DNA of 64,000 nt from Mobula hypostoma. Its lineage: Eukaryota. The stretch lies in the NCBI RefSeq assembly GCF_963921235.1, contig NC_086108.1, forward strand, positions 69,876,001-69,940,000, read 5' to 3'. Positions 2,024 through 56,849 of the stretch are shown one piece after another (position 1 is the stretch's first letter; each line of letters opens with the position of its first letter). Position numbers and translations under genes: made by a program. Under the pieces are notes generated by a model, which was given only the letters and a program-made list of their open reading frames with translations, did no database searches and was not told the origin of the DNA.

Positions 2024-3960
2024 ATGATTGTTTAATGTCATTTTCTATATACAAGTGTAAGGAGTACGAAATAATTGTTATTCTGGATCCGATGCAGCAC
2101 AAAAAAAAACACAAAAGATAATGAACACAACAATAATGAAACACACAATAAATATAAATACATAAGATAACTTGTATACATTGATTGTATGAGGCTAGGC
2201 TATACATAGATGGCTAATGGGAAGTAAAGTCGTGGTGGAGGTGCTGATCATCCCTACTGCTGGGGAAAGTAATTTTATTTTTGAGTGCAGTGGTCCTGGC
2301 GTGAATGCTATATAGCCTCCTCCCTGATGGAGGTGAGGCAGTCCATGAGCAGGGTGTGTGGGATTACTGGCACTTTGCCGACATCTTTCTGTATATAAAA
2401 AGTTTCAAAGGTACAATTTAATGTTAGAGAAATGTATACAATATACATCCTGAAATTATTTTTCTTAGCAACCATCCACAAAAACAAAGGAGTGCCCCAA
2501 AGAATGAACAACAGTTAAATGTTAAGAACCCCAAAGTCCCTTCCAGTGTGTAAGCAGCAGCGAGCAACAATCCCCCCTTCCCCCACCCGCAAAAACAACT
2601 GCAATAGCACTGCCACTGAGCACTCAAGCGTGAGCAAAGCAACAGCAAAGACACAGACTTGCAGTTACCCCAAAGAGTTTGTGTTTCACAGGGTATTCGA
2701 CATACCACACGTTCTTTCTTTCACTGATAAGGGAGAAAGAGGTGTCTCCATTTTCCTAGCGAGCAGGGAGACATAACAAACAACGCGCTGGTTTATGATG
2801 TTAAAAGTCCGTTACGTCACTTTTTTCGAGCTCTGTGCCTGAAGATCACAAAGATCCCGGGTCTCCAGGCACACAGTCCTGGATATTTCGGCTCCCCTGA
2901 ATACACAGGGGTCTCCTGCCGTGACACCGACCCTCGATCCACCCATCTCCAGAGCCCCGAGATCCTAATCTTCCGAATCTGAGCCAGACTCTTAGGCCAA
3001 GCCTTTGGTGAGGTAACAACGGCCAGTTTTAGAACCCTGACAGCGGGTCCTATTCCTGCAAAGAACTGTAGTCAGCGTTCAACTCCAGGTCAGGGTCTTC
3101 AAAAGAACCCTGAAAGGGAAAAATAAGAGATATAAAGATGGAAATTAGAGCTGTTTCTGAAGATGCAAGCAAAGGAATGACCGTTAACCCTCCTAAGCAC
3201 CGCCTTCAGTTATGTGGCCTTTTTTGGCAGGTAGGCTGGTGCTGGTGATGTGTCGGTCAGTTTTGACTACCGGTTGTAGAGCCTTCTTGTCCACCGCGGT
3301 GCAGTCTCCGTATTGTGCAGTGATGCAGCTTGTCAGGATACTCTCTACTGCACATCTGTAGAATGAGGCATGTATGAAATTGCAAAGTCCAGCTCCCTTC
3401 AGCCTCAGAAAGTAGAGGTGTTGGTGAGCTTTCTTGACTGTGTCGGATATTTTCTGGACTATGAGAGGTTGTCTATGATGTGCACTCTCAGGAGTTTAAT
3501 AAAGCTTGCAGTTTCTACTGCTATGCTGTTGATGTAAAGAGAGGGGTGAGTGCTATGAGTTCTCCTGAATTTGATAACCATCTCCTTCCTTAAAAACACA
3601 AACACGAGGAAACCTGCAGATGCTGGAAATTCAAGCAACACACACAAAATGCTGGTGGAACGCAGCAGGTCAGACAGCATCCATAGGAAGAAGCACAGTC
3701 GACATTTTGGGCCGAGACCCTTCGTCAGGACTCCTGCCTTTGTTTTGTTGACATTAAGGAAGAGGTTACTTGCCTGGCTCCAGGAGTTGAGCTCTTCCAC
3801 CTCCTCGCTGGAGGCATTCTCATCGTTGCTGGTGATGAGCCCCACCACTATCGTGTTATTGGTAAACTCCATCATGTGATTGACCTTGCAGTCGTGCATT
3901 CACAGAGCGTACAGCAGTGGGCTCAGCACACAGCCCAAGGGGACACCTGTTGAGGATGAC
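2024..3960 (-). mobile_element. Degenerate Rex1/Babar-like LINE interrupted by another repeat (~2398-3190) and by a pLTR insert
   Basis: Translation FTNNTIVVGLITSNDENASSEEVEELNSWSQASNLFLNVNKTK...EMVIKFRR is the Rex1 RT C-terminal region (degenerate FADDTT). Boundaries are approximate. Confidence 0.65.
3592..3732 (-). mobile_element. Penelope-like pLTR insert with a mutated hammerhead motif
   Basis: Imperfect TSD CTCCTTCCTT (3582-3591) / CTCCTGCCTT (3731-3740); minus strand reads agtcCTGACGAagggtctcggcccAAAAtgtcgactg, with GAAA changed to AAAA. Confidence 0.8.
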
Positions 3961-5185: not shown

Positions 5186-6728
5186 ATAGAAACATAGAAA
5201 ATAGGTGCAGGAGTAGGCCATTCGGCCCTTCGAGCCTGCACCGCCATTTATTATGATCATGGCTGATCATCCAACTCAGAACCCAGCCTTCCCTCCATAC
5301 CCCCTGACCCCTGTAGCCACAAGGGCCATATCTAACTCCCTCTTAAACATAGCCAATGAACTGGCCACAACAGTTTGCTGTGGCAGAGAATTCCACAGAT
5401 TCACCACTCTCTGTGTGAAGAAGTTTTTCCTAATCTCGGTCCGAAAAGGCTTCCCCTCTATCCTCAAACTGTGACCCCTCGTTCTGGACCTCCCCAACAT
5501 CGGGAACAATCTTCCCGCATCCAGCCTGTCCAATCCCTTTAGGATCTTATACGTTTCAATCAGATCCCCCCTCAATCTTCTAAATTCCAACGAGAACAAG
5601 CCCAGTTCATCCAGTCTTTCTTCATATGAAAGACCTGCCATCCCAGGAATCAATCTGGTGAACCTTCTTTGTACTCCCTCTATGGCAAAGATGTCTTTCC
5701 TCAGATTAGGGGACCAAAACTGCACACAATACTCCAGGTGTGGTCTCACCAAGGCCTTGTACAACTGCAGTAGTACCTCCCTGCTCCTGTACTCGAATCC
5801 TCTCGCTATAAATGCCAGCATACCGTTCGCCTTTTTCACCGCCTGCTGTACCTGCATGCCCACTTTCAATGACTGGTGTATAATGACACCCAGGTCCCGT
5901 TGCACCTCCCCTTTTCCTAATCGGCCACCATTCAGATAATAATCTGTTTTCCTATTTTTGCCACCAAAGTGGATAACTTCACATTTATCCACATTAAATT
6001 GCATCTGCCATGAGTTTGCCCACTCACCCAACCTATCCAAGTCACCCTGCATCCTCTTAGCATCCTCTTCACTGCTAACACTGCCACCCAGCTTCGTGTC
6101 ATCCGCAAACTTGGAGATGCTGCATTTAATTCCCTCATCCAAGTCATTAATATATATTGTAAACAACTGGGGTCCCAGCACTGAGCCTTGTGGTACCCCA
6201 CTAGTCACCGCCTGCCATTCTGAAAAGGTCCCGTTTATTCCCACTCTTTGCTTCCTGTCTGCTAACCAATTCTCCACCCACACCAATACCTTACCCCCAA
6301 TACCGTGTGCTTTAAGTTTGCACACTAATCTCCTGTGTGGGACCTTGTCAAAAGCCTTTTGAAAATCCAAATATACCACATCCACTGGTTCTCCCCTATC
6401 CACTCTACTAGTTACATCCTCAAAAAATTCTATGAGATTCGTCAGACATGATTTTCCTTTCACAAATCCATGCTGACTTTGTCCGATCATTTCACCGCTT
6501 TCCAAATGTGCTGTTATCACATCCTTGATAACTGACTCCAGCAGTTTCCCCACCACCGACGTTAGGCTAACCGGCCTATAATTCCCCGGTTTCTCTCTCC
6601 CTCCTTTTTTAAAAAGTGGGGTTACATTAGCCACCCTCCAATCCTCAGGAACTAGTCCAGAATCTAACGAGTTTTGAAAAATTATCACTAATGCATCCAC
6701 TATTTCTTGGGCTACTTCCTTAAGCACA
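5186..6728 (-). mobile_element. Young 5'-truncated CR1 LINE with an uninterrupted RT-containing ORF2 part
   Basis: ORF 5276-6811 contains NYRPVSLTS, YLDFQKAFDKV, GVPQGSVLGP and KFADDTK; 8-bp microsatellite tail (ATAGAAAC)n; homology to the second copy ends at 6728. Confidence 0.95.
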
Positions 6729-7189: not shown

Positions 7190-8270
7190 GCTGCCATTTT
7201 TGGTACCTTCAGCACAAATTGAAGATGATGCTCAAAGATGCTCTATTTGTCTGTGGCTTATAACCCCAATGCGTTCACATCCCTCATCTGGATTCGGTTT
7301 GGACTTGTCCAGCCACTGGAAGCTGCATCACAGACATGACAACTATTGTCGAAAAGTGAAACTAAATGACATATCCACTCAACAGCATAACTGAGAATTA
7401 AACTAGTCCTTCTGTAGCCTTTCTGCTTCTTCAAAACTACTTGCAAACCTAGCCACAAAGTCATCAATTCCATCATTCAAATCACTGACATATAACATAA
7501 AAAGAAGTGGTCCCAACACACAGCCCTGTGGAACACTAGTCACCAGCAGCCAAACAGTAAAGGCTCCCTTTACTCCCACTCTTTGCCTCCTGCCAATCAG
7601 CCAGTGCTAGTGTCTTTCCTGTAATTCCATGGGCTAACTGTTAAGCAGCCTCATGTATGGCACTTTGTTAAAGGCCTTCTGAAAATTCAAGTACACAACA
7701 TCCACCAATTCTCTTTTGTCTATCCTGCTTGTTATTTCTTCAAAGAATTCCAACAGATTTGTCAGACAAGATTTCTCTTAAAGGAAACCATGCTGACTAA
7801 GGCCTATTTTATCACGTGCCCCTTAAGTATCCAAAAACCATATCTTTAACAAAAGACTCCAACATCCTTCCAACCACTGAGGTCAGACTAACTTGCCTAT
7901 AATTTTCTTTCTTCTGCCTCCCTCCTTTATTGAAGAATGGAGTGACATTTACAATTTTCCAGTCCTCCAGAACCATGCCAGAATCCACTGATTCTTGAAC
8001 TTCAGCCACCCCTTTCAGAACTCTGGGGTGTAGACCATTTCATCCAGTTGACTTATCTACCTTCAGCCCTTTCAGTTCCCCAAGCACCTTCTCCCTAGTA
8101 ATGGCAACTTCATTCACTACTAACACTTCAAACTTCTGGCATATTGCTAGTATCTTCTACGGTGAAGACTAATGTTAAATACTTATTCAGTTTGTCTTCT
8201 GCTATTTCCTTGTCACCTATTACTACCTTGCCAACATCACTTTCCAGCAGTCCAATAGCTACTCATCTCT
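7190..8270 (-). mobile_element. Old CR1 ORF2 fragments
   Basis: ORF 7812-8009 (EDWKIVNVTPFFNKGGRQKKENYRQVSLTSVVG) plus frameshifted RT pieces. Confidence 0.8.
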
Positions 8271-8304
8271 TTTACACTTTATATATCTGAAGAAATTTTT
8301 GATA

Positions 8305-8755: not shown

Positions 8756-9128
8756 GTATGAAAGCACACATTTCTCTTTCCAGATTTAACTACTTCTGCA
8801 CCATACAATAATGTTATTATTTATAGTGCAAATGAAAATCTGTTAGTGAAAGCCAAAAAAAACTGTAATGCTGTTTGTGACCCCACAGGAGCTGACAGTG
8901 CAATTAAATTTTCTGGTAGAGGAGAAAGTAGCCTAACCAGTATTGAGAGAAGCGAAGGTGAAAAATTGCAAATTTCTGGCGGTTCTGGGACAAATCAGGT
9001 GGCACCGGAAGCCTAAGGCTCAAATGGTACCCTACACTTAAACTGGGTAGTGAAACCAGTCAAAGCAATACCAGTGGTGGGCAAACTTCTACAAACAACA
9101 ATCGAAGTAAAACTAGCAGGGGTATATA

Positions 9129-10754
9129 CAGTTGAAGTCAGTTGTTTACATACACCTTAGCCAAATACATTTCAACTCAGTTTTTCACAATTCCTGACAT
9201 TTAATCCTAGAAAACATTCCCTGTCTTAGTTCAGTTAGGATCACTGTTTTATGAATGCGAAATGTCAGAATAGTAGTAGAGAGAATGATTTATTTCAGCT
9301 TTTATTTCTTTCATCACTTTCCCAGTGGGTCAGAAGTTTACATACACTTTGTTTGTATTTGATAGCATTGCCTTTAAATTGTTTAATTTGGGTCAAATGT
9401 TTTGGATAGCCTTCCACAAGCTTCTCACAGTAGGTTGCTGGAATTTTATTCCATTCCTCCAGACAGAACTGGTGTAACTGAGTCAGGTTTGTAGGCCTGC
9501 TTGCTTGCACACGCTTTTTCAGTTCTGACCACAAATTTTCTATTGGATTGAGGTCAGAAAATGATGTCAAATCTGGTTCAACCTTGGGAGCAATTTCCAA
9601 ACGCCTGAAGGTACCACGTTCATCTGTACAATCAATAATACGCAAGTATAAACACCATGGGACTATGCAGCCGTCATACCGCTCAGGAAGGAGACGCATT
9701 CTGTCTCCTAGAGATGAACATACTTTGGCGCGAAAAGTGCAAATCAATCCCAGAACAACAGCAAAGAACCTTGTGAAGATGCTGGAAGAAACAGGTAGAC
9801 AAGTATCTATATTCTCAGTAAAACGAGTCCTATATCGACATAACCTGAAAGGCTGCTCAGCAAAGAAGCCACAGTTCCAAAACCACCATAAAAAAGCCAG
9901 ACTACAGTTTGCAAGTGCACATGGGGACAAAGATCTTACTTTTTGGAGAAGTGTCCTCTGGTCTGATGAAACAAAAATTGAACTGTTTGGCCATAATGAC
10001 CATCGTTATGTTTGGAGGAAAAAGGGTGAGGCTTGCAAGCCAAGGAACAACATCCCAACCGTGAAGTTTGGGGGTGGCAGCATCATGTTGTGGAGGTGAT
10101 TTGCTGCAGGAGGGACTGGTGCACTTCACAAAATAGATGGCATCATGAGGAAGGAAAATTATGTGGATGTATTGAAGCAACATCTCAAGACATCAGGCAG
10201 GAAGTTAAAACTCGGTCGCAAATGGATCTTCCAAATGGACAATGACCCCAAGCATACCTCCAAAGTTGTGGAAAAATTGCTTAAGGGCAACAAAGTCAAG
10301 GTATTGGAGTGGCCATCACAAAGCCCTGACCTCAATTCGATAGAAAATTTGTGGGCAGAGCTGAAAAAGCGTGTGCGAGCAAGGAGGCCTACAAACCTGA
10401 CTCAGTTACATCAGTTCTGTCTGGAGGAATGGAACAAAATTCCAGCAATTTACTATGAGAAGCTTGTGGAAGGCTACCCAAAACGTTTGACCCAAGTTAA
10501 ACAATTTAAAGGCAATGCTACCAAATACTAACAAAGTGTGTGTAAACTTCTGACCCACTGGGAAAGTGCTGAATGAAATAAAAGCTGAAATAAATCATTC
10601 TCTCTACTATTAATCTGACATTCCACATTCTTAAAATAGTGATCCTAATTGACCTAAGACAGGAAATGTTTTCTAGGATTAAATGTCAGGAATTGTGAAA
10701 AACTGAGCTTAAAAGTATTTGTCTGAGGTGTATGTAAACTTCTGGCTTCAACTG
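9129..10754 (+). mobile_element. Sleeping-Beauty/Tss1-type Tc1 transposon, rearranged, with ~429 bp inverted ends
   Basis: TA-flanked termini CAGTTGAAGTC.../...GGCTTCAACTG. Transposase runs from KSGSTLGAISKRLKVPRSSVQ to FKGNATKY (about 9569-10531) in one frame, with one TGA at 10097-10099; DD34E residues (WSDE, MDND, IEN) are present. Confidence 0.95.
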
Positions 10755-10819
10755 TAAATACAAAAGGAGAAAGCTGCAAGATGGGTGAACACTTCAGGTC
10801 AATGAACCATACAGCAGAG

Positions 10820-16196: not shown

Positions 16197-16311
16197 CTAT
16201 GAAACCATAATCAACAAGAATTAATGAGTATATCACAATCAATATTTCAATATGATAGGCCATTTGCCCTTCAACTATTACAGTTCTACTTTAATGTAAT
16301 CCAGCTGCTAT

Positions 16312-18308
16312 TAGAAACATAGAAACATAGAAACATAGAAAATAGGTGCAGGAGTAGGCCATTCGGCCCTTCGAGCCTGCACCGCCATTTATTATGATCA
16401 TGGCTGATCATCCAACTCAGAACCCAGCCTTCCCTCCATACCCCCTGACCCCTGTAGCCACAAGGGCCATATCTAACTTCCTTTTAAACATAGCTAATGA
16501 ACTGGCCTCAACAGTTTGCTGTGGCAGAGAATTCCACAGATTCACCACTCTCTGTGTGAAGAAGTTTTTCCTAACCTCGGTCCTAAAAGGCTTCCCCTCT
16601 ATCCTCAAACTGTGACCCCTCGTTCTAGACCTCCCCAACATCGGGAACAATCTTCCTGCATCTAGCCTGTCCAATCCCTTTAGGATCTTATACGTTTCAA
16701 TCAGATCCCCCCTCAATCTTCTAAATTCCAACGAGTACAAGCCCAGTTCATCCAGTCTTTCTTCATATGAAAGACCTGCCATCCCAGGAATCAATCTGGT
16801 GAACCTTCTTTGTACTCCCTCTATGGCAAAGATGTCTTTCCTCAGATTAGGGGACCAAAACTGCACACAATACTCCAGGTGTGGTCTCACCAAGGCCTTG
16901 TACAACTGCAGTAGTACCTCCCTGCTCCTGTACTCGAATCCTCTCGCTATAAATGCCAGCATACCGTTCGCCTTTTTCACCGCCTGCTGTACCTGCATGC
17001 CCACTTTCAATGACTGGTGTATAATGACACCCAGGTCTCGTTGCACCTCCCCTTTTCCTAATCGGCCACCATTCAGATAATAATCTGTTTTCCTATTTTT
17101 GCCACCAAAGTGGATAACTTCACATTTATCCACATTAAATTGCATCTGCCATGAGTTTGCCCACTCACCCAACCTATCCAAGTCACCCTGCATCCTCTTA
17201 GCATCCTCCTCACTGCTAACACTGCCACCCAGCTTCGTGTCATCCGCAAACTTGGAGATGCTGCATTTAATTCCCTCATCCAAGTCATTAATATATATTG
17301 TAAACAACTGGGGTCCCAGCACTGAGCCTTGCGGTACCCCACTAGTCACCGCCTGCCATTCTGAAAAGGTCCCGTTTATTCCCACTCTTTGCTTCCTGTC
17401 TGCTAACCAATTCTCCACCCACACCAATACCTTACCCCCAATACCGTGTGCTTTAAGTTTGCACACTAATCTCCTATGTGGGACCTTGTCAAAAGCCTTT
17501 TGAAAATCCAAATATACCACATCCACTGGTTCTCCCCTATCCACTCTACTAGTTACATCCTCAAAAAATTCTATGAGATTCGTCAGACATGATTTTCCTT
17601 TCACAAATCCATGCTGACTTTGTCCGATCATTTCACCGCTTTCCAAATGTGCTGTTATCACATCCTTGATAACTGACTCCAGCAGTTTCCCCACCACCGA
17701 CGTTAGGCTAACCGGCCTATAATTCCCCGGTTTCTCTCTCCCTCCTTTTTTAAAAAGTGGGGTTACATTAGCCACCCTCCAATCCTCAGGAACTAGTCCA
17801 GAATCTAACGAGTTTTGAAAAATTATCACTAATGCATCCACTATTTCTTGGGCCACTTCCTTAAGCACTCTGGGATGCAGACCATCTGGCCCTGGGGATT
17901 TATCTGCCTTCAATCCCTTCAATTTACCTAACACCACTTCCCTACTAACATGTATTTCGCTCAGTTCCTCCATCTCACTGGACCCTCTGTCCCTTACTAT
18001 TTCTGGAAGATTATTTATGTCCTCCTTAGTGAAGACAGAACCAAAGTAATTATTCAATTGGTCTGCCATGTCCTTGCTCCCCATAATCAATTCACCTGTT
18101 TCTGTTTGCAGGGGACCTACATTTGTCTTTATAAGTCTTTTCCTTTTTACATATCTATAAAAGCTTTTACAGTCCGTTTTTATGTTCTCTGCCAGTTTTC
18201 TCTCATAATCTTTTTTCCCCTTCCTAATTAAGCCCTTTGTCCTCCTCTGCTGAACTCTGAATTTCTCCCAGTCCTCAGGTGAGCCACTTTGTCTGGCTAA
18301 TTTGTATT
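16312..18308 (-). mobile_element. Young 5'-truncated CR1 LINE with an uninterrupted ORF2 part
   Basis: 646-aa ORF 16417-18357 with the full RT motif set; (TAGAAACA)n tail; near-identical to 5186-6728. Confidence 0.95.
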
Positions 18309-20430
18309 CAATGTCAATGTCAATAGCACTGCAACTGTTTCTTCTTCCAGATGACAACCAATAGCAGCATGAAAATCATTTTCTCTTCTCACTCAAATTC
18401 CATGGCTAATCACCATCATGTAATGTACTCCAGTTCTTGCCCTATTATGGCACCAGGAATAGTTTCTATTTACAATGTCTTGAGACTTAAAGATTTAAAA
18501 TCCCAGATATACTTTCGATTTCCCCAACTTTCAATATAGTAACCTCTTCTGCTTCAATACCATCAACAACAGTCTCTTCAGCGTATCTACAACAAAAATT
18601 GATTTCAGGGCTGAATATTCTCAATCTTTTTTGGACTTTTCCTGAAGATTTCAAGTCTTTTCTGAAATGCCCATTATTACACTGATGCGAGTAATATACA
18701 TCATATCTGCACTGTGGCACACGCCATAAATGTACTGTAACTAAGTGAAATCATACAGTGCCAAAATACAAGATCCACATTCATAACTGATTTTCAGGGT
18801 GCATTACATGAGTACTGCTTATATTTTATTTGAGAGGGGTTCTAGCATTTTCTCCGACTCACAACGCTCAGGGATTAGGTAAGAGTTCTGGAAGTGGGAA
18901 AGTGATGGAATTCAAAGATCAAGGTTCATGGGAGAAATGTGGTGTAAAAGTAGTTCAAGTTGAGTAAAGGCCTAGGGGTTAGTTTAAGAAGCCAGCCCAG
19001 GCTGCTGCAGATCCCCACAATGCAGCACTTGAGACAACGCCTCACAGATGAAGGATGTGGAAATGCAGCACTCTGAAAAGCCTGATCACAACTTCAGACC
19101 AGCAAAAGAGGGGCTTGTGACTGGAAACCCAATCAACATAGTGACACCATACCCAAATCATTTTGCCTTATTTTCTACTCTGACGGGCCTCATTTATCTT
19201 TAGTTCTCTATACCTGCCTCACATTTCCTTTATCTCTAACCAATCTCAATAATACTCAATGCCCAGAATCACCTGAACCTGTTCCAGGCCTTTACATTTG
19301 CACTGAATTCTTGTTATTTCTCCTTTGAATTCCTTCCCACAGTGCAAATGTACTCTTCGCTGTAAATGGATGCTCCTGTTCTAATGAAATCAGCATTCCG
19401 CCATTTTAAGATGTTTATTTCTGGCCCACCCCCATCTTTTTCCAAGTACTTTGAAATATAGAGCTACAGTCACTCCTCCCATAATACACCCCCACCAACA
19501 TTCCTTTCACTCAATCAGCTTCTTTGCCCAAGATCCAGTAATGCTCCTTTCCTCATTAGTTTAATCAAAATTCTGTGTCAAAAAGCTGTCCAGATACATT
19601 TCAAAAATTCCATCCTTCCTCAGCCTTTAAGACAAGCCCAATTATTCTTCAGGAAATTAACATTCTCTGGTACCATAACCCAATTGTATTGCCAAAATAT
19701 TGTTCTTTTATCTCTCATTGTCTTGTTGGGAGATCTGTAATACATCCTAATAAGATGTCAACATACTTTGTTCCTAATTTCTACTCATTTGAGAAACTTT
19801 CAAGGATATCCTCTCTCAGTACTGAAGTCATGCACTAATTAACAGTGCAATGCCACCTCCTCTTTCACTTCCCTGTCTCACCTGAATATATTGTACCCTG
19901 GGATATTGAGTTGCTAGTACTGTCCACCTTCAACCATGTCTCTGTGATGGCATCCATATTGTGTTTCTATGCATAAATCAGCTGAGTTCATCTACTTTAC
20001 TAGTTGTCTCCTTGTGTTTAAATAGGCGCAATATAGCTTTGAATTCCCATTATGACTTCCTCTGCCAACTGGACTTGCTATTTTCCTCTCCATCCAAACA
20101 CCTAGACCAACAGCACAGGCAAATCTTCCCCTCAATGAGGTTGGTCCTGTTCTAGTTAAGGTGTAATCTCCCTTCCCCAGAAGCAATCCTAGTGATTCAG
20201 GAAACTAAACACCATCCCTTCAAACAAGCATTCATCTGACCTATGCTAATACTCAATAATCTTAGCACTAGAAGCAATCCAGAAGGGTAGTTGTAAGGAA
20301 AGATTGTAATGGCTGAGTTTATTCTCATTAGAATGTAGGAAGGTGAGGAGTGACCTTACAAAATGAAACAGGGTACAGATAGTAATTTTCCCAGGGAATT
20401 AGAGTCTGGAACTAAAGGGTGCAGGTTTAA

Positions 20431-20762
20431 AAACACAAACACGAGGAAATCTGCAGATGCTGGAATTTCAAGCAACACACATAAAAGTTGCTGGTGAATG
20501 CAGCAGGCCAGGCAGCACCTCTAGGAAGAGGTACAGTCGACATTTTGGGCCGACGAAATACGAGGGCAAACTAGCCAACAATAAAAAGCACAATACTAAA
20601 AGTTTTTTCAGTTATATAGAGTAAAAGGGAAGTAGATATTGGACTAGTGGAAAATGATGCTGGTGAAGTAGTAATGGGGGACAAAGATATGGCCCCGAAA
20701 CGTCGACTGTACCTCTTCCAAGGGATGCTGCCTGGCCTGCTGCATTCACCAGCAACTTTTAT
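20431..20762. mobile_element. Fold-back Penelope-like pLTR insert enclosing a CR1 fragment
   Basis: 14-bp TSD GGGTGCAGGTTTAA (20417-20430 / 20763-20776); inverted pLTR arms; loop ~20553-20692 is CR1 ORF2-like. Confidence 0.85.
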
Positions 20763-23234
20763 GGGTGCAGGTTTAATGTGGTTTGTGGTGGGGGGGGGAG
20801 CAGGGATTTTAAAGGAGCTCTGAGGGATGTTTTTGCAGACAAATGATGCTAGTTTTCTGGAAAAGACTGCTAGAGGCAGAAACAACGACAATACTTAAAA
20901 GGCATTTGGACAGGAAAGACGTAGCATGCAGGCCCAAGGCAGACAAGTAGGATTAGTATGGATAGGATGATGCCAATACAAATACATAAAGCACTGAATT
21001 GCAGCAATTTGGTGTTTTTGAGCAGTGGCCAATCAGAGATCTGAAGCATGAGAAGATGTAGCTCATCGATGGAGTGCATAAGGCATTGACTCACAGCAGT
21101 TTGGTGTTTTTGAGCAGGAGCCAATAAGCAATCCAGATTGATTTGCAAGAACAAATTAAATTAAAGCAGGGACAAGTGGAGCGGCCATTTTTGGAGTGGA
21201 CAGTGTTAAAGAATGGGGGTTTTGAAGTTTCAGCGAGGAGAGACTTGGGTCACAAAGCATAAAGCTGTAGTTAGATTCCCCCTCACAGATGATTATCCTT
21301 CTTTGTACAAACGTTTGTATTTACTCAGTTAGAGTAGGAGGATGCCAGGCAAGATAGATGAATGTTCCTCTTGTAGGATATGGGAAGACAGGGAGACTCC
21401 ATTGTTCCTGATGACTATACCTGTGAAAAGTGCATCTTATACTCCACCTTAAGGAATTTGAACTGGAACTGGATGAAGTCCGGATCATTCAGGAGACTGA
21501 TGGGGGGTGATAGGTAGGACATATAGGGAGGTTGTTACACCCAAGGTGCAGGACCCAAAAACTGGGTCACAGGAAGGGGCAAGTTGTTAAACAGCCAATG
21601 GGCACCAGGTCCAACTCTCTGACTCAGAAAGGAAGGCGGAGGGGGGGAAAGAGGTGAGCAGTGGTGAGAGGAGATTCGTTAGTTAGGAGAACAGAAGGGA
21701 GATCCTGTGGATGCAAACGAGATTCCCTGATGATATGTTGTCTCCTAGGTGCTGGGAAATCTCGGATCGAGTCTTTAGCTATTCAGCCTTCCACTTAAAA
21801 ATGCTGGAGGACATGGTCCATGTTGGTAGCAATGACATAGATAGGAAGAGTGATGAGGTTTTGGAAAATGAATTCAGGGAGGTAGGTGCTAAGGTAAAAG
21901 GCAGGATCTCCAGGGTTGTGATCTCAGGATTGCCATGTGCTATTGAGGCCAGAAATAGGGAGATTATAGAGGTTAACTAACAGTGGCTGAAGAATTGGTG
22001 CAGGAGGGAGGACATAAAATTTTTTTAGATCTTTGGGCTGTTTTCCAGGGAAGGTAGGACCTGTACAGAAGAGACTGTTTGGACCTGAACTGGAAGGGGA
22101 CTAATATCCTAGCAGAAAGGTATACCAATGCTGTACAGGGGGTTTTAAACTAGAATTGCAAGGTGTCAGGAACCAGAGTGCCAGCACAGATAAAGGAGAG
22201 GTTGTGGACACATGTTGTTAAGACCTCAAAGTCAGGAACCAAAAGGTTCAGCATGGTGCAACTGATATCCTGAGTTGCACGTATTTAAATACAAGTAGTA
22301 TTGTAGGAAAGGCAGGTGAGCTCAGGGCACGGATCAAAACATGGAACTGTGATATTGTGGCCATTCGTGAGACTTGCTTGCAGGAGGGACAGAACTGGCA
22401 ACTTAATATTCTGGGTTTTTGTTGGTTAAGATGCGACAGAGTGGGCGGGCAAGTGATATTGCTGTTCAGAGGAAGTGTCACAGCAGTACTGAGTACAGAC
22501 TGGAGAATTCGCCTACTGAGGTGTTATGCATGGAAATGAGGAATAAGAAAGGCATGACCATGTTAATGGGCTGTATTACCTACCACCCAACAGTCCATGG
22601 GAATTAGAGGAACAAATTTGTAGAGAGATCGCAGACTGTTTCAAGAAACAAGATTGTTATAGTAGGTGATTTTAACTTTCCACGTGTTGATTGGGACTCC
22701 CATGCTGTAAAAAGACTACATGGATGGAGCTTGTCAAATGTGTTCAGAAAAGTCTCTAATCAGTATGTAGAAGTCTCAACAAGAGAGACCATATCTTATG
22801 AGTAATTAATGCAGAAAACCAGGTAATTGCAAAAGGTTCACAAACTGAGGAAAAGGATTGCAAGAGACAAAGCTGGTCCTCTGTAAGATCAGAACAGTAG
22901 TCAATGTGTGGAGCCAAAAGAGATGGGGGAAGACCTTAAATGGATGTTTTTGTATCTGCATTTACTCTGGAGTCAGACACAGAGCATACAGAAGTGAGCC
23001 AAGGTAGCATCGACTTCATGGACCCTTTACAGATTACAGAGGAGGGAGGTGTTTGCCGTCTTGAGGCAAATTAGGGTGGATAAGTCTCTACGGCCTGACA
23101 AGGTGTTCTCTTGGACCCTGTGGGAAGCAAGTGCAGAAATTGCAGGGGCCCTAGCAGAGATATTTAAATTACTCTTAGTAACAGGTAAGGTACCAGAGGG
23201 TTGGAGGATAGCTAATGTTGTTCAGCTGTTTAAG

Positions 23235-23490
23235 ATCACAAGATCACAAGACAAAGAAGCAGATGCAGGCCATTCAGCCCATCGAGTCTGCTCCACCATG
23301 AGCTATTCTCCCACCTAGTTCCAATTTCCGGCTTTTTCCCCATATCCCTTGATACCCTGACTAATTAGATACCTATCAATCTCCTCCGTAAACACCCTCA
23401 ATGATCAGGCCTCTGCAGCTGTATGTGGCAACGAATTCCATAAATCCATGACCTTCTGGCTAAAAAATTTCTCCCCATCTGTTTTAAATC
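23235..23490 (-). mobile_element. Short CR1 3' end nested antisense inside the old CR1
   Basis: (ATCACAAG)n tail; flanked by ctgtttaaga / ctgttttaaga; the host frame NVVQLFK resumes as K..NYRPVSL after the insert. Confidence 0.7.
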
Positions 23491-23719
23491 TCTGTTTTAA
23501 GAAAAGCTCTAAAAATTAATCGGAAAATTATAGACCGGTGAGCCTGGCATCAATAGTGGGAACGTTATTGTAAGGTATACCAAGGGACCAGATATGAGTG
23601 TCTGGATAGACATGGACTGATTGATGATAGCATTGCTTCGTGAGTGGTAGGACATGTCCAACTGAGCTTATAATGTTTTTCGAGGAGGTTACCAGGAAAG
23701 CTGATAAAGATAAGGCAGT

Positions 23720-23801
23720 GGACTTCAGTGGCAGTGGATAAGACAGTGTCTACATGGACTTCAGTGGCAGTGGATAAGACAGTGTCTACATGGACTTCAG
23801 T
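23720..23801 (+). repeat. 36-bp tandem duplication (2.3 copies)
   Basis: GGACTTCAGTGGCAGTGGATAAGACAGTGTCTACAT twice, then GGACTTCAGT. Confidence 0.9.
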
Positions 23802-25019
23802 AAGGCGTTTGACAAGATCCTGCATGGGAGGTTGGTCAAGCAGGTTCAGTTGCTCAGAATTCAAGACGAGGTATAAATTGGATTAGGCACTGGTTTTCTC
23901 AGAGAAGCCAGAGACCAGTAGTAGATGGTTGCCTCTCTGACTGGAGGTCTGTGACTAGGGAGCTGTCATAGGCATTGGTGTTGGATCCATGTTTATTTGT
24001 CGTCTATATCACTGATCTGGATGATAATGTGGTTAACTGGATCAGCAAATTTGCAGACAACAGCAAGATTGGGTGTAGCGGACAGAGAGGAAAACTATCA
24101 GAGCTTGCAGTGGGATCTGGACCAGTTGGGAAAATGGGCTGAAAAACGGCAGATGGAATTTAATACAGATGAGTGCAAGGTATTCCACTTCAGTCGGACC
24201 AACCAGGGTACTTCTTATGCAGTGACGGGTTGGGCACTGAGGAGTGCTGTAGAACAAAGGGATCTGGAAATATGGGTCCATAATTTAATCGAAAGTGGCG
24301 TCACAGGTAGATATTGTCAGAAAGAAAGCTTCTGGCACATTGGCCTTCATAAATCAAAGTACTGAGTATAGGAGATGGATGCTACGTTGAATAAGATATC
24401 GGTGAAGTCTACTTTAGAGTATTTGCAGTTTTGGTCACCTACCCACAGGAAAGATGTAAATAAGATTGAAAAAGTACAGAGAAAATTTACAAGGATGTTG
24501 CTGGGTCTGGAGGAGCTGAGTTATACGGAATTAATGAATAGGTTAGGACTTTAATCCTTGGAACGTAGAATACCGAGGGGAGATTTGATAGGGGGTATAC
24601 AAAATTATGAGAAGTATAGATAGGGTAAATGCAAGCAGGCTTCCCCCCCCCACTGAGGTTGGGGGGGAATACAGAGGTCATGGGTTAAGGGTGAAAGGTG
24701 AAAAGTTTAAGGGGAACTTGAGAGTGTAGAACAAGCTGCCACCGTAGTGGTGCATGTAGCTTGATTTCAACGTTTAAGGGAAATTTGGATAGGTACGTGG
24801 ATATTGGGGGTGTGAAGGGCTATGGATCCAGAGCAGGTTAATTGGAGTAGGCAGTTTAAATGCTTCAGCATGGACCAGATGGGCCAAAGGGCCTGTTTCT
24901 GTGCTGTATTTATCTATGACTAATCAGCCATGATGGAATGGCAGAGCAGACTCAATTGGCATCATTATAAGACACATCTACTGATGGATTTGAGGAAATA
25001 TGCTGTACATTATCAGATG

Positions 25020-25655
25020 AAGTGGGCTTTAAAAACTGACAACAGTACCTGGGGGTGACCTGGATGACAGATTTGAGTACAGTACCAACACAGAGGCTGT
25101 GTACAAGAAGGGCCAAAGTTGCCTCTACTTCCAAAGAAGACTGAGGTCCTTTGGAGTATGTAGGTCTCTGTTCACACGTCCTACCAGTCTGTTGTCACCA
25201 GTACTATCTTCTATGAATGATCAACATGAACGATGCCAACAGGCTCAGTAAACTGATTATAAAGGCTGACTCTGTTATAGGAGTCAAATTGGAGGCTGTG
25301 ATAGAACAAAGGATGCTACAGAAAATCCCGGCAATTCTAGACAATGTTTCTCACCCTCTGCGTACCATCTTGGCTGAACAGGAGAGCACTTTCAGTAATA
25401 GACTAAAGACAAATGCACTGCTCCAAAGAGTGTTATACGAGATCATTCTTACCCTCGTCCATTAGACTCTTATATAATGAGTCAACCTATAACCAGGAAA
25501 GCGATGACCCCCTCCACCCCCATTAGACTGTTTGAGGCAACTTATTTTTTTATTCCTTCTTACTTCTCTTCCAATATTAGCATATCAGTGCATTTGTGAT
25601 GCTACTGTGACACCATAATTTCCTTTGGGACCAATAAAATATCCATCTATCTAAA
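25020..25655 (+). mobile_element. Rex1/Babar-like LINE 3' fragment
   Basis: ORF 25217-25465 (DANRLSKLIIKADSVIG...ILDNVSHPL) and a (TATC)n tail at ~25640. Confidence 0.7.
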
Positions 25656-25930
25656 CTGCTGGAGGAACTCAGGAGGATGAGCAGTATCTGTTGGGAGGGG
25701 GTGGGGGGTGGGGAAGGAAGGAATTGACAACATTTTAGATCAAAATGCCCCCTCCACAGATGCTGCCCACTGAGTTCCTCCAGCACTTTTTTATGCTCCA
25801 GTTCCCAGCAGCTCTTATGTCTTCACATTTACAGTACTGCTTTGCATTTCATCCAAACTATTTTTATAGCAGACCTTTGACATGTAAGACAGCTACACAA
25901 GAGATTATTTAAAGACAAGCCTGGACTTAC

Positions 25931-27393: not shown

Positions 27394-29039
27394 CTGTTGA
27401 AGTAAAAAGATGAAAAAATTAACAAACTGAAATCCATACATCCTAACTGAAATACAGCATTGCTCAAATCATGCAATAATCAAAACAAAGGCAAAAGAGC
27501 AGGACAACCAAAGAAATAAACTTTATTAGCTTGCAGCTGAACATTAGATTGGCAAAACAATGTCTGAACTAGTAACCGCTCCGAGTGTTCTGCTCAGCTT
27601 CCTAAACCCGGTTCCATTTACTTCAATAGACCCGAATTGCAGAAGAAGGTAGAACATGCAGCTGCTGGTATAAAGCACATTTAGCTACAGGAGGATTTCT
27701 ACATAACAAAATCATAGTAAAGTAAATGTTAAGTTTAATAAAATAATGCCCAACCTTAGTAGAGCAATTCAGAAAGCTCTGTTTCACAATTCTTTACTAA
27801 GAGCCCTGCAAATTGTTGTTTATTTTAAGTATGTATCATCCGAACCTGTAACCACTCCAGGTTCAATGACTTGCTGCATAAAAATCAGTTTCTTTGTCTT
27901 GTTACTTCTGTATCTATTGGTAATCTTGACTGTTCCGCAAATGAAAAGTTTCTTTTTACCATATCTAAACCCCAAAGTAAATTTCTTACTATTAAATCTA
28001 CTCTTTCCCAACTATGTGACACTATAATTACAGAGAGAAGCAAATTTAGTATTTTTGAAAGGATTCATGTAGCAAAATTACCAACATCAAAACAAATATG
28101 TAAACTTGGATACAAGTTATGATGCACAAACTTAGTTTTTAAAAAATGCTATTTCGGTGTTGCTTAAATTACCACGAAACACTAGATGCGACTCCCTGAC
28201 TTGTCTTACTAAATAGGCATTAACCCACCCCGAGATGTTATCTTTATATTATCCATAACTTGAATTCCACCTACATTAGACTCAAGAGATACAGAATTGA
28301 AACAGGGCCTTGGGTCCACAGAGTCTGTGACAAACTTGCCCTCATCTATTTTATCCTTCCTACACTCGTTAACTCTCCACTCCTGTCCACATTCTATACA
28401 GTAGGGGAAATTTTAAATAGGCAATTACTCTAGCTATCTACATATCTTTTGTGATGTGAGGGGAAACAGAACACCCAGAGGATCAGCGAGCAGTCACAGG
28501 GGAACTTGCAACCTCCTCACAGACAGCACTGAAGATCAGAATTGGAAATGGGTCACTGGAGCCATGAAGCAGCAACTCTACAAGGTATGTCACTGTGCTG
28601 TCCAAAACTGCACAATGGTGACCTGGGTACCTACTAACCTGAATCAACCCAAATTCATTTAAAGACAAGATCATTTCTGAGGTGATAATTCTTATCACCT
28701 AAAATTTTTTTTTAAGGAAATTGGAGGACAGCAAGGGGAGGCAAATGTGAGAGACAATTTTTTTTTATATAAACACACACACCCCTCTACCACCAGGGAG
28801 TAGAGGTAAATATATTAGGACATTTAAGAAATGTTACAGGTCAGCCCCAGGTACTGTTGTCAGTTTTTAAAGCCCACTTCATCTGATAACGTACAGCATA
28901 TTTCCTCAAATCCATCGGTAGATTAATCTTAGAGTAGGTTATAAGGTCAGTACAACGTTGTGAACCAAAAGGCCTGTACTATGTGTAGGTATATTTTGTA
29001 TTCTACAATTTGCCAGGGGAAGCCCAATTGGAATTTCAC

Positions 29040-31250: not shown

Positions 31251-31418
31251 AAACACGAGGAATTCTGCAGATGCTGGAAATTCAAGCAAAACACGTCAAA
31301 ATTGCTGGTGAACACAGCAGTCCTGACGAAGGGTCTCGGCCCGAAACGTCGACTGTACCTCTTCCTAGAGATGCTGCCTGGCCTGCTGTGTTCACCAGCA
31401 ACTTTGATGTGTGTTGTT
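31251..31418. mobile_element. Fold-back Penelope-like pLTR insert
   Basis: 14-bp TSD with one mismatch, TAAACGGAAGCAGT (31237-31250) / TAAACAGAAGCAGT (31419-31432); inverted arms surround a hammerhead motif. Confidence 0.85.
31318..31355 (+). ncRNA. Minimal type I hammerhead ribozyme motif (Penelope-associated)
   Basis: CAGTC-CTGACGA-A-GGGT(CTCG)GCCC-GAAA-C-GTC/GACTG: stem I CAGTC:GACTG, core CUGANGA and GAAA, stem II, palindromic ACGT stem III, predicted cleavage after 31350. Confidence 0.75.
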
Positions 31419-31605
31419 TAAACAGAAGCAGTTACAGTTTCAAAATTTATCAGCACATTTGTGGAATAGACATGTCTCCAATTTTTTAGCGACAGTTACA
31501 TTTGTTTAAATTAAAAGCTCTATTGGATTAACAAAAGCTATACAGAAGAACTGATTTTGAAAAGATTTACAATGTCTTCTTTGAATTATTTGTAATATTA
31601 CTTAC

Positions 31606-32590: not shown

Positions 32591-32766
32591 ACACGAGGAA
32601 TTCTGCAGATGCTGGAAATTCAAGCAACACACATCAAAGTTGCTGGTGAACGCAGCAGGTCAGGCAGCATCCTGACGAAGGGTCTCGGCCTGAAACGTCG
32701 ACTGTACCTCTTCCTAGAGATGCTGCCTGACCTGCTGCGTTCACCAGCAACTTTGATGTGTGTTGC
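32591..32766. mobile_element. Fold-back Penelope-like pLTR insert with a hammerhead core
   Basis: Perfect 14-bp TSD AGTGAATAACACAA (32577-32590 / 32767-32780); CTGACGA (32672)...GAAACGTC (32692-32699); stem I truncated by the inversion junction. Confidence 0.87.
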
Positions 32767-38843: not shown

Positions 38844-39170
38844 GAATAAACTCTTCTTGGGCTTCCAGCCACATACAGATATCGATTATAATTGACATTT
38901 CATTGACAAACTCCACCATCTTCATCAGGGATGATGCCGAGGCATCTCTAGTCTGGTGGCATTTATACTGCCATAGGACGTCCCTCCTCTCATCCAATCA
39001 GGTGGGACGGACTACAGCAGTACAAATACCATCAGACTCGGCATCATCCCTGATGAAGGCGGCAGAGTCTGTCATTGAAACGTCAGTTATAATCGATACC
39101 TGTATCTGGCTGGAAGCCCAAGAAGAGTTTATTCGTCATATACATTGGGAAAGCACTAGATCCTTCAAAA
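38844..39170. mobile_element. Fold-back pLTR insert of a second Penelope-like family
   Basis: ~98-bp inverted arms 38844-38941 / 39037-39134; arm contains CTGATGAAG..GAAACGTC and ends GAAGAGTTTATT. Confidence 0.75.
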
Positions 39171-42570: not shown

Positions 42571-44046
42571 CTGTAAAAAGATAGCACAAAAGAAAGGCTA
42601 CTTGCTGATGCACATATTCAAGATCTGCAATTCAATTTATTTAAGACACTCCAAGCAGAAATGTCTGTAATAAAGCTCCCAAATGGCATAACTTCATTAA
42701 AAAAAACATATTTTAGAGTATAGTGGACCATCCACCACAGAAGTATACAGATATAGTTTTGTCAACAGGGGCCTTAAATGAAAAAAAAAGCTAAGAACTT
42801 ATGCTAAATCCTTAACATATTGCTCATGAGGACTCAATCAGAATATTCTGTAGAATTCCAAGCACCATATTTTGTGAAGATGGCTGATACCCTGGGATGA
42901 GCAGAGAGAGGTTGCCATTTGAGAGCACTGAATGTGAAACAGGGACCACAGGATACTGTTCACATAAGCTGGTTCATGTAAAACAAGCATAACTCAATCT
43001 TGATTGTTAATTAAGTTGTATTCATCTGAGCAAGTGGACAATATTCCCTTGAAGATGGTGAAAATGCTATGGAGAATCAAGAACTGAGTCTTCACTCACC
43101 AGAGTTACCAACCTGTGACCTTCTCTAAAGCTACAGGTCTAATTATCTGGTTGGTCTATTAGGTTTATGATCAAATGGAAACCTGAGGATTTTGACAGTG
43201 AGTGACTACACAAAAAAATTGGCATCAAAAAATCAACACAGAAATTGTTGGAGCAACTCAAGTCAGGCAGACCCTCTTCATCGGGACTGGAAAGGAAAGA
43301 AGCAAAGGCCAGAATCAAAAGATTGGGGTGAGGAGGGGATGCAGCACAAACTGGCAGGTGACACGTGAAATCAGGTGAGGGGGAAGGTGGGAGTGATGAA
43401 GTAAGAAGCTTGGAGGTGATAACTGGAAGAGATATGAGGCAATAGGAGCAATCTAATAAGAAAGGACAGTGCACCATGTAAGAAAGGGAAGGAGGAGGGG
43501 CACCAGAGGGAGGAGATAGGCAGGTGAGGAGAAGAGAGAGGACGAGAAAGGAACTAGAATGGGAAATAGGAAAAGAGAGAAGGGGAAGGGGGAGAAATTA
43601 CTGGGAGTTAACAAAATTGATATTTATGCCTTCAGGTTGGAGGCTACCCAGATGGTACAAGGTGTTGCTTCTACATCCTGAAAGTGGTCTCATCATGGCA
43701 TTAGAGGAAGCTATGGACAGACATGTCAGAATGGGAATAAAAGATCGAATTGAAACGATGGCTACCGGGAGATCCTGCCTTCAGACAGAATGAAGGTGCT
43801 CAATAAAGCGGTCCCTGAATCTACATCGGGACTCACAGATGTAAAGAAGGTTGCTCCAGGAGCACCAGAAGACCCCAAAAGTCTCACAGGTGAAGTGTTG
43901 TCTCACTTGGAAAGCCTGTTTGGAGCCTTAAATATGGTAAGGGAGGAAGTGTAGGTGAAGGGTATCGCACATGTCACACTTGAAGGGACTAGTGCCAGGA
44001 AGGAGATCAGTTGGGAGGGATGAGTGAACAAGGGGGTCATGTAGAC

Positions 44047-51162: not shown

Positions 51163-51339
51163 TATATAGGCATATTGATGGCGAGGGGAAAGGTAGAGAA
51201 GTAGGCTGGTAAGTGCTCAGTGGGATTAAGATCAGATAAAGAAGAGATGATAGGCAAACAGAGCCAAGTTGAGAACGATGATGCTCGGTGATGAGGTAGA
51301 AGGAAACAAAGACATCCTACTGGAACACAAAGGGAGTGA

Positions 51340-51590
51340 GCTATCCAAAATTAGAAAACTCATTGTTCATACTATTGGGCTGTAGTCTATCCAAATGTAA
51401 TACAAGGTGCTGTTCTTCCAGTTTGGCCTCACTATGACAGTGAAGGTGGCTGATGTCAGTGTGGGATTGGAAAAAGGACTTGAGAAGACATGCAACCACC
51501 CTTTGAAGGTAGAGTGCAGATGTCCTGCAATGCAGAGGAGGCCATAAGCTATAAACTTTCCCACCATCACAGAACTGTGGCTGCAACTCT
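51340..51590 (-). mobile_element. Penelope-like GIY-YIG C-terminal fragment
   Basis: ORF 51341-51586 ends KLEEQHLVLHLDRLQPNSMNNEFSNFG, homologous to the pieces at ~14620 and ~43600. Confidence 0.65.
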
Positions 51591-55389: not shown

Positions 55390-56101
55390 CTATATTAAAA
55401 AGAAAGCAAACTAAATCAACTGCTATTTAAAAGATCCATAAATTTGTGATTGGAAGAATAATAAATCTCTCAAGACATATCATTACTGAGTACAATCAAT
55501 CTACAGTTGCACATAAACTGTTAAATGTAGAAAACCAAAACTCTATTAGCAGGCTTTTGTATAATCTGTTAATACAATCAATATAGAATTGCTAATATGA
55601 AGTGAACTTTCAGCTTTTTGAACACATCAATAATAAACAGTGTACACATTTTTTTGAATGAGGTATAGCTGAGCTTTTAAAACAGCAAACATTATTACTG
55701 CAAAACAAACTAAGCTCGGAAAACTAACTTTACACTTATAGTATGTAATTCATTCAGTATATATATGTCCCACTATTTGGTTTTCTATAGTGATTAAATA
55801 ATGAATAACAATCACAATGAATTATCAGTCTTGCCCCATTGTCTTCACTATTGTCAGATGCCACAGGTCCCCTGTAGATGGTGCCAAATTAGAAGCCAAT
55901 CTAGAGAAAATAATCGTTTAGTCACTGAACGCATCTGACTGGTTTTCTTCTCTGAGCACGATAACCCCCTAACCCCTGCACCCACTCTCAAGCCTGGCAG
56001 CAAACAACATTCCTTTTCAGCTGACCACAAAACATGGGCCAATTCTCAAAAATTGACAATGAGAATAATTTGCCTTCGATTCAATAAAATTAGGAGACTT
56101 G

Positions 56102-56750: not shown

Positions 56751-56754
56751 TAAG

Positions 56755-56773
56755 TGGGGTTCTCGTCCGCGAT
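56755..56773 (+). promoter_or_regulatory. Degenerate primer-binding site for tRNA-Pro
   Basis: TGGGGTTCTCGTCCGCGAT versus the canonical tRNA-Pro PBS TGGGGGCTCGTCCGGGAT, 4 nt after the LTR. Confidence 0.8.
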
Positions 56774-56849
56774 TTTGAACGCTAAATTTGGGACGGAGTA
56801 AATTGATTGGGTCAAAATTCCCAAAAGAAAGAAAAGACAAACAGCAGAA

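What the first reader, a model, noticed from the sequence alone, without database searches (positions are those of the whole stretch)
20431..20762. Fold-back pLTR insert captured ~140 bp of CR1 ORF2 between its arms
Seen: one perfect 14-bp TSD encloses pLTR arm, foreign segment (~20553-20692) and inverted pLTR arm. The segment translates KYEGKLANNKKHNTKSFFSYI*SKREVDIGLVENDAGEVVMGDKDMA, homologous to CR1 ORF2 DYERKLAENIKTDCKSFYRYV...VGPLQTETGELIMGSKDMA (see the 16417-18357 ORF). It has no CR1 3' tail, and both junctions fall in hammerhead stem II. Inference: a double template switch during Penelope reverse transcription captured an unrelated RNA or DNA, meaning these elements can mobilise passenger sequence.
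Basis: partly seen in the sequence, partly recalled or inferred. Interest (0 to 1): 0.7.

Follow-up and report, generated by a model that had tools for sequence, protein, structure and literature searches.

The report
Penelope fold-back insert with CR1 filler
A small two-armed insertion of a Penelope-like jumping gene carries a 140-base scrap of an unrelated jumping gene between its arms, most likely picked up by accident while it was being inserted, a kind of event already described for Penelope elements in rotifers and for human L1.

Summary
The anatomy is real: a perfect 14-bp duplication encloses a tailed Penelope-type arm, 140 bp of CR1 ORF2 (no tail, no significant duplication of its own) and an inverted tail-less arm. 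A related organism has both outer junctions, so the insertion is old. The inner junctions were not confirmed in reads, and no donor was found because no genome is held.

The best reading is simpler than a double switch. Both target ends primed copying at the element's two start sites, one copy jumped once onto CR1 RNA (the piece is co-oriented with that arm), and the ends were joined. Read-through from a nested source copy, a patch added during integration, or a later patch at the palindrome centre remain open. Nothing shows this chimera moved again, so 'mobilises passengers' is unsupported here.

Unrelated DNA between pLTRs with a TSD is published for a rotifer, and extra cDNA at inversion junctions for L1. 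The scan has also noted a 13-kb cargo case in this genome (unchecked). Odd detail: both arms stop within 0-4 nt of the same point at hammerhead loop II, past the cut site.

The parts
20417..20430 (.). Left copy of the 14-bp target-site duplication; its last 5 nt (20426-20430) also match the element's own continuation (priming microhomology, inferred)
   Evidence: loose ends at 20426; same TTAAAA start in the copy at 3590. Organism B has one substitution at 20417
20431..20553 (-). Left pLTR arm, 123 bp, with the one-sided tail (about 20431-20470); runs past the hammerhead cut site and stops in loop II
20554..20693 (+). CR1 ORF2 fragment from upstream of the RT domain, 140 bp, with a 2-bp deletion (frameshift) and probably a second short deletion; last 3 nt (GGC) shared with the pLTR
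   Evidence: family contigs carry TA behind 20612
20694..20762 (+). Right pLTR arm, 69 bp, inverted, no tail; starts at the 3' strand of helix II and ends 5-14 nt inside the right-arm ends of the three sibling inserts
20763..20776 (.). Right copy of the target-site duplication; its first 5 nt match the pLTR continuation at 4 of 5
20313..20926 (+). Target: old, decayed CR1 3' fragment interrupted by the insertion; it is not the donor (different part of the element)
16197..25930 (-). Host context: apparent last intron of an M16 peptidase gene (nardilysin-like by recall)
   Evidence: Pfam PF16187 hits for exons at 48.5 and 51.7 kb. The two exons flanking this intron had no M16 hit and are inferred from splice signals, phase and recall

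Best explanation
One Penelope-like integration event with priming from both ends, one template jump and one end-joining step. (1) The endonuclease cut both strands 14 nt apart [TSD shown; enzyme inferred]. (2) The top-strand end primed at the outer start site and made the tailed left arm; the bottom-strand end primed at the inner start site, about 40 nt further in, and made the right arm [two fixed ends shown; twin priming inferred from PMC11167929 and the L1 model]. (3) Both copied uncut RNA past the hammerhead cut site and stopped at about the same point in loop II, perhaps the 5' end of one broken RNA [positions shown; cause inferred]. (4) The right-arm cDNA jumped, using about 3 nt of microhomology, onto a CR1 transcript and copied 140 nt [co-orientation and GGC overlap shown; RNA template inferred]. 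(5) That end was joined to the left-arm cDNA by host repair [inferred]. The product is a dead, apparently single-locus intronic insertion, older than the split of organisms A and B.
For: One perfect TSD around all parts. No tail and no significant TSD for the piece: the imperfect 10-bp repeat around it is matched by 10-26% of random 137-140-bp pieces placed between the same arms. Arm ends cluster at two sites: left arms of 4 of 4 two-armed inserts start at 20431-20437 and right arms end at 20467-20476 in common coordinates; contig loose ends pile up at 20426-20437 and 20471. Both target ends show microhomology with the template. In 4 of 4 two-armed inserts both arms share minority variants, as expected from one source. 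The other 3 of 4 are joined directly, with 2-3 nt of overlap (read by eye). The piece is in the same sense as the right arm, the orientation that a switch onto sense RNA gives (PMC13174262 passages; PMC11702581 section 7). PAc cuts and extends both strands, starts at two sites and prefers uncut RNA (PMC11167929).
Against: No donor locus or RNA was identified. Orientation has a 50% prior, so it is weak. The right junction has one C more than a clean GGC overlap predicts. The near-equal stop points of the two arms fit a later patch in a perfect palindrome equally well. Shared arm variants fit fold-back copying or arm-to-arm conversion too. The piece carries deletions, which may mean a dead genomic donor, though 2 indels after insertion are not unusual (P 0.07-0.29). 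No contig across the inner junctions is listed. Twin priming has not been shown in vivo for PLEs in the papers I read; Arkhipova 2013 favours self-priming.
Confidence: 0.45

Rival explanations
1. Read-through (5' flank) transduction: the source was a truncated pLTR already inserted in a CR1 copy; a transcript across that locus was copied from the pLTR start sites, and one cDNA ran on into the CR1 flank. No template switch is needed.
For: Explains the CR1-pLTR right junction as an old 5' junction with microhomology, and a decayed passenger. This is the route published for the rotifer NRPS case (PMC3846280). An earlier scan note (e1-8033579, unchecked) reports unspliced host cargo between outward-facing arms in this genome. 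An 86-nt gapless contig in X5 with 4 differences fits a paralogue about 2-4 times better than an orthologue (binomial 0.12-0.20 vs 0.055).
Against: The left arm would have to stop by chance within 0-4 nt of the source's pLTR/CR1 border, and its last two bases follow the pLTR consensus rather than the CR1 flank. No such source in the 64-kb window. The X5 contig may simply be the orthologue (P of 4 or more differences 0.08).
Confidence: 0.15
2. Patch during integration: the two cDNA ends could not anneal and host end-joining bridged them with a CR1-derived cDNA or DNA fragment (templated insertion), without the Penelope RT reading CR1.
For: Short size, 0-3 nt overlaps and possible single extra bases at both inner junctions. 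For L1, extra cDNAs at an inversion junction (PMC11702581 section 7) and 22 templated insertions under 250 bp (bioRxiv 2024.08.27.596794 passage) are reported.
Against: The L1 templated insertions typically come from within 15 bp of the site; here no local donor exists within the window (best 78%). Sequence alone cannot separate this from the best explanation.
Confidence: 0.15
3. Later repair: the insertion first formed a near-perfect palindrome joined at the self-complementary GGCC; the centre later broke and was patched with CR1 sequence (class 2 TSIP-like, or an internally primed CR1).
For: Both arms end within 0-4 nt of the same template position, around GGCC, whereas the other 3 two-armed inserts are offset by 18, 46 and 57 nt. 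All 5 arm differences lie in the inner 32 nt (P 0.018, post hoc).
Against: The left arm extends 2 nt (GA) beyond the GGCC axis along the pLTR consensus, and each junction matches its own arm better than the other. The flanking 10-bp repeat is not above chance. Patches are rarer than deletions at such breaks (own knowledge).
Confidence: 0.15
4. One reading: one continuous cDNA goes pLTR to CR1 to inverted pLTR by two switches (or a final fold-back onto itself).
For: Arms share variants. Double jumps are published for LINEs (PMC2104539 abstract) and self-priming is proposed for Penelope (PMC3846280).
Against: Starting from the tailed arm it needs an antisense CR1 template and then an antisense pLTR template, and it does not explain why right arms end at a fixed second start site.
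Confidence: 0.05
5. Local misassembly of the loop.
For: No listed contig bridges the inner junctions, and none of about 80 nt or more covers the piece in X1 or X2.
Against: X1 holds 0.92 of the sampled words of 19800-21400 (may be the source sample). An X5 contig matches 20578-20663 without gaps, so this exact deletion pattern exists in the related organism. Unitigs fragment in repeats and the table is cut.
Confidence: 0.05

Closest known systems
Penelope-mediated capture in Adineta vaga (Arkhipova et al. 2013, PMC3846280; main text read)
   Same: [quoted passage not shown]
   Different: There the NRPS gene lies between direct pLTRs, keeps introns and has an empty allele. Here 140 bp of another retrotransposon lie at the joint of two inverted arms, with no donor or empty allele found
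Head-to-head PLE insertions with a 30-40-bp tail and two RT start sites (Craig et al. 2021 PMC8557442, passages; Frangieh et al. 2024 PMC11167929, parts 1-2 of 4)
   Same: Inverted 5'-truncated copy, tail on one side only, two start sites, copying through an uncut hammerhead
   Different: In the parts read, neither paper describes foreign sequence at the inversion joint; the arms here are only 69 and 123 bp with no ORF
L1 twin priming with switching or extra cDNA at the inversion junction (PMC11702581 section 7 and passages; bioRxiv 2024.08.27.596794 section 4 part 1 and passages; Kojima 2010 PMC2912911, passages)
   Same: Two inverted cDNAs inside one TSD with a third sequence between them, explained by one switch before end-joining or by uptake of extra cDNA
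   Different: Human L1 enzyme, poly(A) priming, somatic events. Here both arms copy the same stretch, and the event is germ-line and old
LINE template-switch chimeras, including tripartite ones (PMC2104539, abstract; PMC13174262, passages)
   Same: Parts from different RNAs within one TSD; orientation used to tell a switch from twin priming
   Different: Made by LINE RT, recurrent, donors known. Here a single case with unknown donor
Class 2 templated sequence insertions (PMC5110952, passages)
   Same: Short distant sequence without TSD or tail, with microhomology or extra bases
   Different: Not tied to a retroelement integration. Applies only to the patch rivals

Membership tests
Penelope-like element insertion | RT plus GIY-YIG ORF linked to this terminal repeat | tested here: inconclusive
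   No ORF in the insert. A relic at 43540-44000 that looks like a PLE endonuclease end (recalled resemblance) is followed by a hammerhead-like remnant, but Pfam gave no PLE hit in 6 of 6 frames tested
Penelope-like element insertion | Minimal hammerhead in the pLTR (core, unpaired base before helix II, G10.1-C11.1, palindromic 15.2-16.2; PMC4209133 passages) | tested here: met
   Intact in the sibling copy at 31319-31356; focal arms keep only the 3' part. Rfam at gathering threshold found 0 matches in the window
Penelope-like element insertion | Inverted 5'-truncated copy next to the main copy | tested here: met
   4 such inserts in the window
Penelope-like element insertion | 30-40-bp tail on one side only | tested here: met
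   Left arm starts at 20431, right arm ends at the equivalent of 20476-20481; siblings 20432-37 vs 20467-73
Penelope-like element insertion | Target-site duplication | tested here: met
   14/14
Canonical nested CR1 insertion | Homology to CR1 ORF2 | tested here: met
Canonical nested CR1 insertion | CR1 3' end or tail | tested here: not met
   Piece ends near codon 104 of 652
Canonical nested CR1 insertion | Own TSD | tested here: not met
   Imperfect 10-bp repeat, matched by 10-26% of random pieces in 6 of 6 null sets
Template-switch chimera | All parts inside one TSD | tested here: met
Template-switch chimera | Parts joined by a switch share orientation | tested here: inconclusive
   True for piece and right arm, false for piece and left arm: fits one switch, not two
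Template-switch chimera | Donor RNA identified | not testable with these tools
   No genome held; searches empty or spurious
PLE-mediated cargo mobilisation (A. vaga type) | Empty allele or orthologous empty site | tested here: inconclusive
   Neither organism laid shows an empty site among the listed joints (15 of 179 shown); both carry the outer junctions
PLE-mediated cargo mobilisation (A. vaga type) | Cargo between direct pLTRs, donor intact elsewhere | tested here: not met
   Arms are inverted only; donor part untestable
Non-autonomous family or retrozyme carrying the cargo | The chimera itself is multicopy and keeps whole hammerheads | tested here: not met
   Neither arm has a whole ribozyme. 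No second copy in the window; the only gapless contig on the piece has single-copy depth (56.6 vs 47.9). Genome-wide copy number could not be counted

The most novel reading that the evidence does not exclude
Penelope-like RT routinely primes from both target ends on one RNA, runs off the RNA's 5' end at hammerhead loop II and then jumps end-to-end onto unrelated cellular RNAs. The very many two-armed inserts in this genome would then be a fossil library of captured germ-line RNA fragments and a direct genomic test of the unresolved PLE integration mechanism. Some of them, keeping both start sites inside a transcribed intron as here, could be copied again with their cargo.
Probability: 0.15. 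Interest if true: 0.6.

Novelty: new member of a known kind. Interest (0 to 1): 0.27.

Why it matters
As a single locus it matters little: a dead intronic insertion with no sign of function or spread. Its value is as a pointer. How PLEs make head-to-head arms with a one-sided tail is still unsettled (self-priming in PMC3846280; both-strand extension in vitro in PMC11167929). A genome where this repeat's contig depth is about five orders of magnitude above its flank (not a copy number) should hold many foreign loops. Their orientation, splicing state and donors would tell RT jumping from read-through or repair, and would extend to a vertebrate PLE what is documented for L1.

Tried and rejected
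Whole-genome census of loops, donor search and copy count: not possible, no genome held. DNA scans for the CR1 piece or the pLTR: 0 hits in viral contigs and 0 in metagenome contigs. Protein searches for the donor family: 1 candidate, none significant; HMMER search gave 2 hits, both repeat proteins matching 13-15 residues, rejected as chance. So whether the bases GA at 20552-53 also match the donor is untested. Rfam: 0 matches at gathering threshold. The 16417 and 5186 CR1 copies are not the donor (63-70% DNA identity); 8201-8300 is closer (78%) but too distant. The old CR1 target is not the donor. An own TSD for the piece was considered and rejected as chance. 'Donor was already decayed' was considered and left open: at least 4 substitutions and 1-2 deletions against the family majority are a lower bound and are compatible with decay after insertion. 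Junction at the ribozyme cut site rejected: both arms pass it by 10 nt or more. Pfam did not confirm the PLE endonuclease relics or the three 3' host exons; the PDB search with one exon found nothing. Eight literature searches found no paper describing a foreign piece at the inversion joint of a vertebrate PLE; the library lacks most subscription papers and I read no supplements.

Full report
OBSERVATION. The described structure is in the sequence. A 14-bp direct repeat (20417-20430, 20763-20776) is perfect. Only 1 of 1500 random position pairs at the same distance gave a repeat that long, possibly this site itself. Removing the insert restores a continuous, old CR1 3' fragment. Inside lie a 123-bp arm, a 140-bp middle piece and a 69-bp inverted arm; the arms differ at 5 of 69 shared bases. 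The middle piece, read across its frameshift, matches the window's RVT_1-bearing CR1 ORF at E 1e-11. Its nearest DNA relative in the window is a different CR1 copy at 8201-8300 (78%). It comes from upstream of the RT domain and has no 3' tail.

THE ARMS. The window holds 4 two-armed inserts of this repeat (31251, 32581, 47313 and the focal one) and at least 2 single arms. In common coordinates the tailed arms start at 20431-20437 and the tail-less arms end at 20467-20476. Contig loose ends in the laid runs pile up at 20426-20437 and, in X5, at 20471. This is the one-sided 30-40-bp tail of Penelope-like elements (PMC8557442, passages), which Frangieh et al. equate with two RT start sites in a system that cuts and extends both target strands (PMC11167929, parts 1-2 of 4). 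A sibling copy carries an intact minimal hammerhead with the features listed by Cervera and De la Pena (PMC4209133, passages). Rfam found nothing at gathering threshold. I could not link the repeat to a PLE ORF by a tool hit, so family membership rests on anatomy. Both target ends match the template: the last 5 TSD bases on the left continue the family sequence, and the first 5 on the right match at 4 of 5.

INNER JUNCTIONS. Helix II folds as GGGU/GCCC with a four-base loop. The left arm stops in that loop and the right arm starts at the 3' strand. Both therefore passed the cut site, consistent with uncut RNA as template, and neither keeps a ribozyme. The two stops are within 0-4 nt of each other, while the three siblings are offset by 18, 46 and 57 nt. 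The 11 arm-to-arm joints among the 15 shown (164 more not shown; a biased sample) are offset by 5 to 91 nt. So junctions in helix II are not the rule for the family. At the right junction GGC is shared by CR1 and pLTR, with one extra C. An imperfect 10-bp repeat flanks the piece, but 10-26% of random pieces placed between the same arms score as well, because GGCC is self-complementary. It is not a TSD.

READS. No genome is held. Of 13 runs listed, I laid 4: two of organism A, possibly the source sample, and two of a related organism B from another study. A has contigs 20001-20454 and 20738-21036 with no differences. B has the same two contigs with 14 substitutions in about 750 bases (1.9%). 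They run 23-25 bases into the arms, below the tool's 31-base bar for bridging, but they end inside the repeat with no loose end, where an empty allele would diverge at once. I conclude the insertion predates the A/B split. Arm divergence (7%, 95% interval 2-16%) agrees loosely. No listed contig spans an inner junction, and none of about 80 nt or more covers the piece in A. One 86-nt contig in X5 matches 20578-20663 with 4 differences and no gap at single-copy depth. It is either the orthologue or a paralogue or donor and is not linked to the arms. Family contigs differ from the piece at 4 listed sites and by 2 inserted bases behind 20612. That is a lower bound and cannot show that the donor was already decayed.

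MECHANISM. The piece is in the same sense as the tail-less right arm and opposite to the left. For L1, co-orientation marks a switch or RNA ligation and opposite orientation marks joined twin-primed ends (PMC13174262, passages; PMC11702581, section 7). I therefore favour priming from both ends, one jump of the right-arm cDNA onto CR1 RNA, and end-joining to the left-arm cDNA (0.45). In 4 of 4 two-armed inserts the arms share minority variants, which fits one template but also fold-back copying or conversion. Rivals: read-through from a pLTR nested in a CR1 copy (0.15), a host-made patch during integration (0.15), a later patch at the centre of a GGCC-joined palindrome (0.15), the literal double switch (0.05), misassembly (0.05). 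These probabilities are my judgement.

PRIOR ART. Arkhipova et al. 2013 (PMC3846280, parts 1-4 of 5) report an intron-containing gene and several unrelated non-coding sequences between pLTRs with TSDs, and invoke template jumps; a 2019 review repeats this (PMC6431247, passages). For L1, an insertion with two inverted parts and two extra RT sequences at the internal junction is described (PMC11702581), as are twin priming with switching and 22 short templated insertions (bioRxiv 2024.08.27.596794). Double jumps are reported for LINEs (PMC2104539, abstract only). I also saw passages of PMC2912911, PMC10760644 and PMC12350158 and part 1 of 5 of bioRxiv 2026.07.22.740005. Eight searches found no report of this exact layout for a vertebrate PLE; supplements were not read and may hold such cases. 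Earlier scan notes (unchecked) describe fold-backs of this family as ordinary and one 13-kb cargo case in the same genome.

CONTEXT. The site appears to lie in the last intron of an M16 peptidase gene on the minus strand (Pfam for two upstream exons; flanking exons inferred; the name nardilysin is recalled). On that strand the pre-mRNA would read the left arm in sense with its tail, so recopying with cargo is conceivable, but I have no evidence for it.

VERDICT. Real, old, apparently single-locus, and best explained as an accident of integration. It works like L1 twin priming with a switch. It is a Penelope-type insertion by anatomy, not a nested CR1 and not shown to be a mobile chimera. New member of a known kind; interest 0.27.

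Noticed in passing
window 3590-3736, 31315-31422, 32668-32766: Three arms (one single, two right arms) end within about 2 nt of the 5' edge of hammerhead stem I, not at the cut site; could mark a preferred RNA 5' end or a microhomology hotspot.
   Followed up: no
window 20518-20549 / 20694-20725: All 5 differences between the focal arms lie in the inner 32 nt, three of them within 6 nt; the outer 37 nt are identical (P 0.018, post hoc). Unexplained: conversion of the outer stem or error-prone synthesis near the joint.
   Followed up: partly
window 5186-6727 and 16327-17868: Two young CR1 copies 99% identical over 1.5 kb, 11 kb apart, same strand; the second lies just upstream of the apparent last exon of the host gene.
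   Followed up: no
window 16005-51804, minus strand: Exons of an M16 peptidase gene (nardilysin-like by recall) at about 51.7, 48.5, 27.3, 25.9 and 16.1 kb.
   Followed up: partly
window 24968-25062 and 28837-28931: 95-bp inverted repeat (94%) 3.8 kb apart that brackets two apparent host exons.
   Followed up: no
window 43050-44000 and 51300-51450, minus strand: Relics resembling PLE endonuclease C-termini (recalled resemblance, no Pfam hit); the first is followed by a pyrimidine-rich tract and a deleted hammerhead/pLTR remnant.
   Followed up: partly
window 38844-39134; 9122-10761; 56101-60575: A 291-bp self-palindrome (MITE-like), a Tc1-like element with 436-bp inverted repeats, and an LTR element with 96% identical LTRs (labels by recall).
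   Followed up: no
tables 5 and 5c: Other genomic loci join pLTR arms with short filler letters (1-36 nt), and one contig in all four runs joins a pLTR arm to the repeat family seen at 21168; further junction types exist genome-wide.
   Followed up: no
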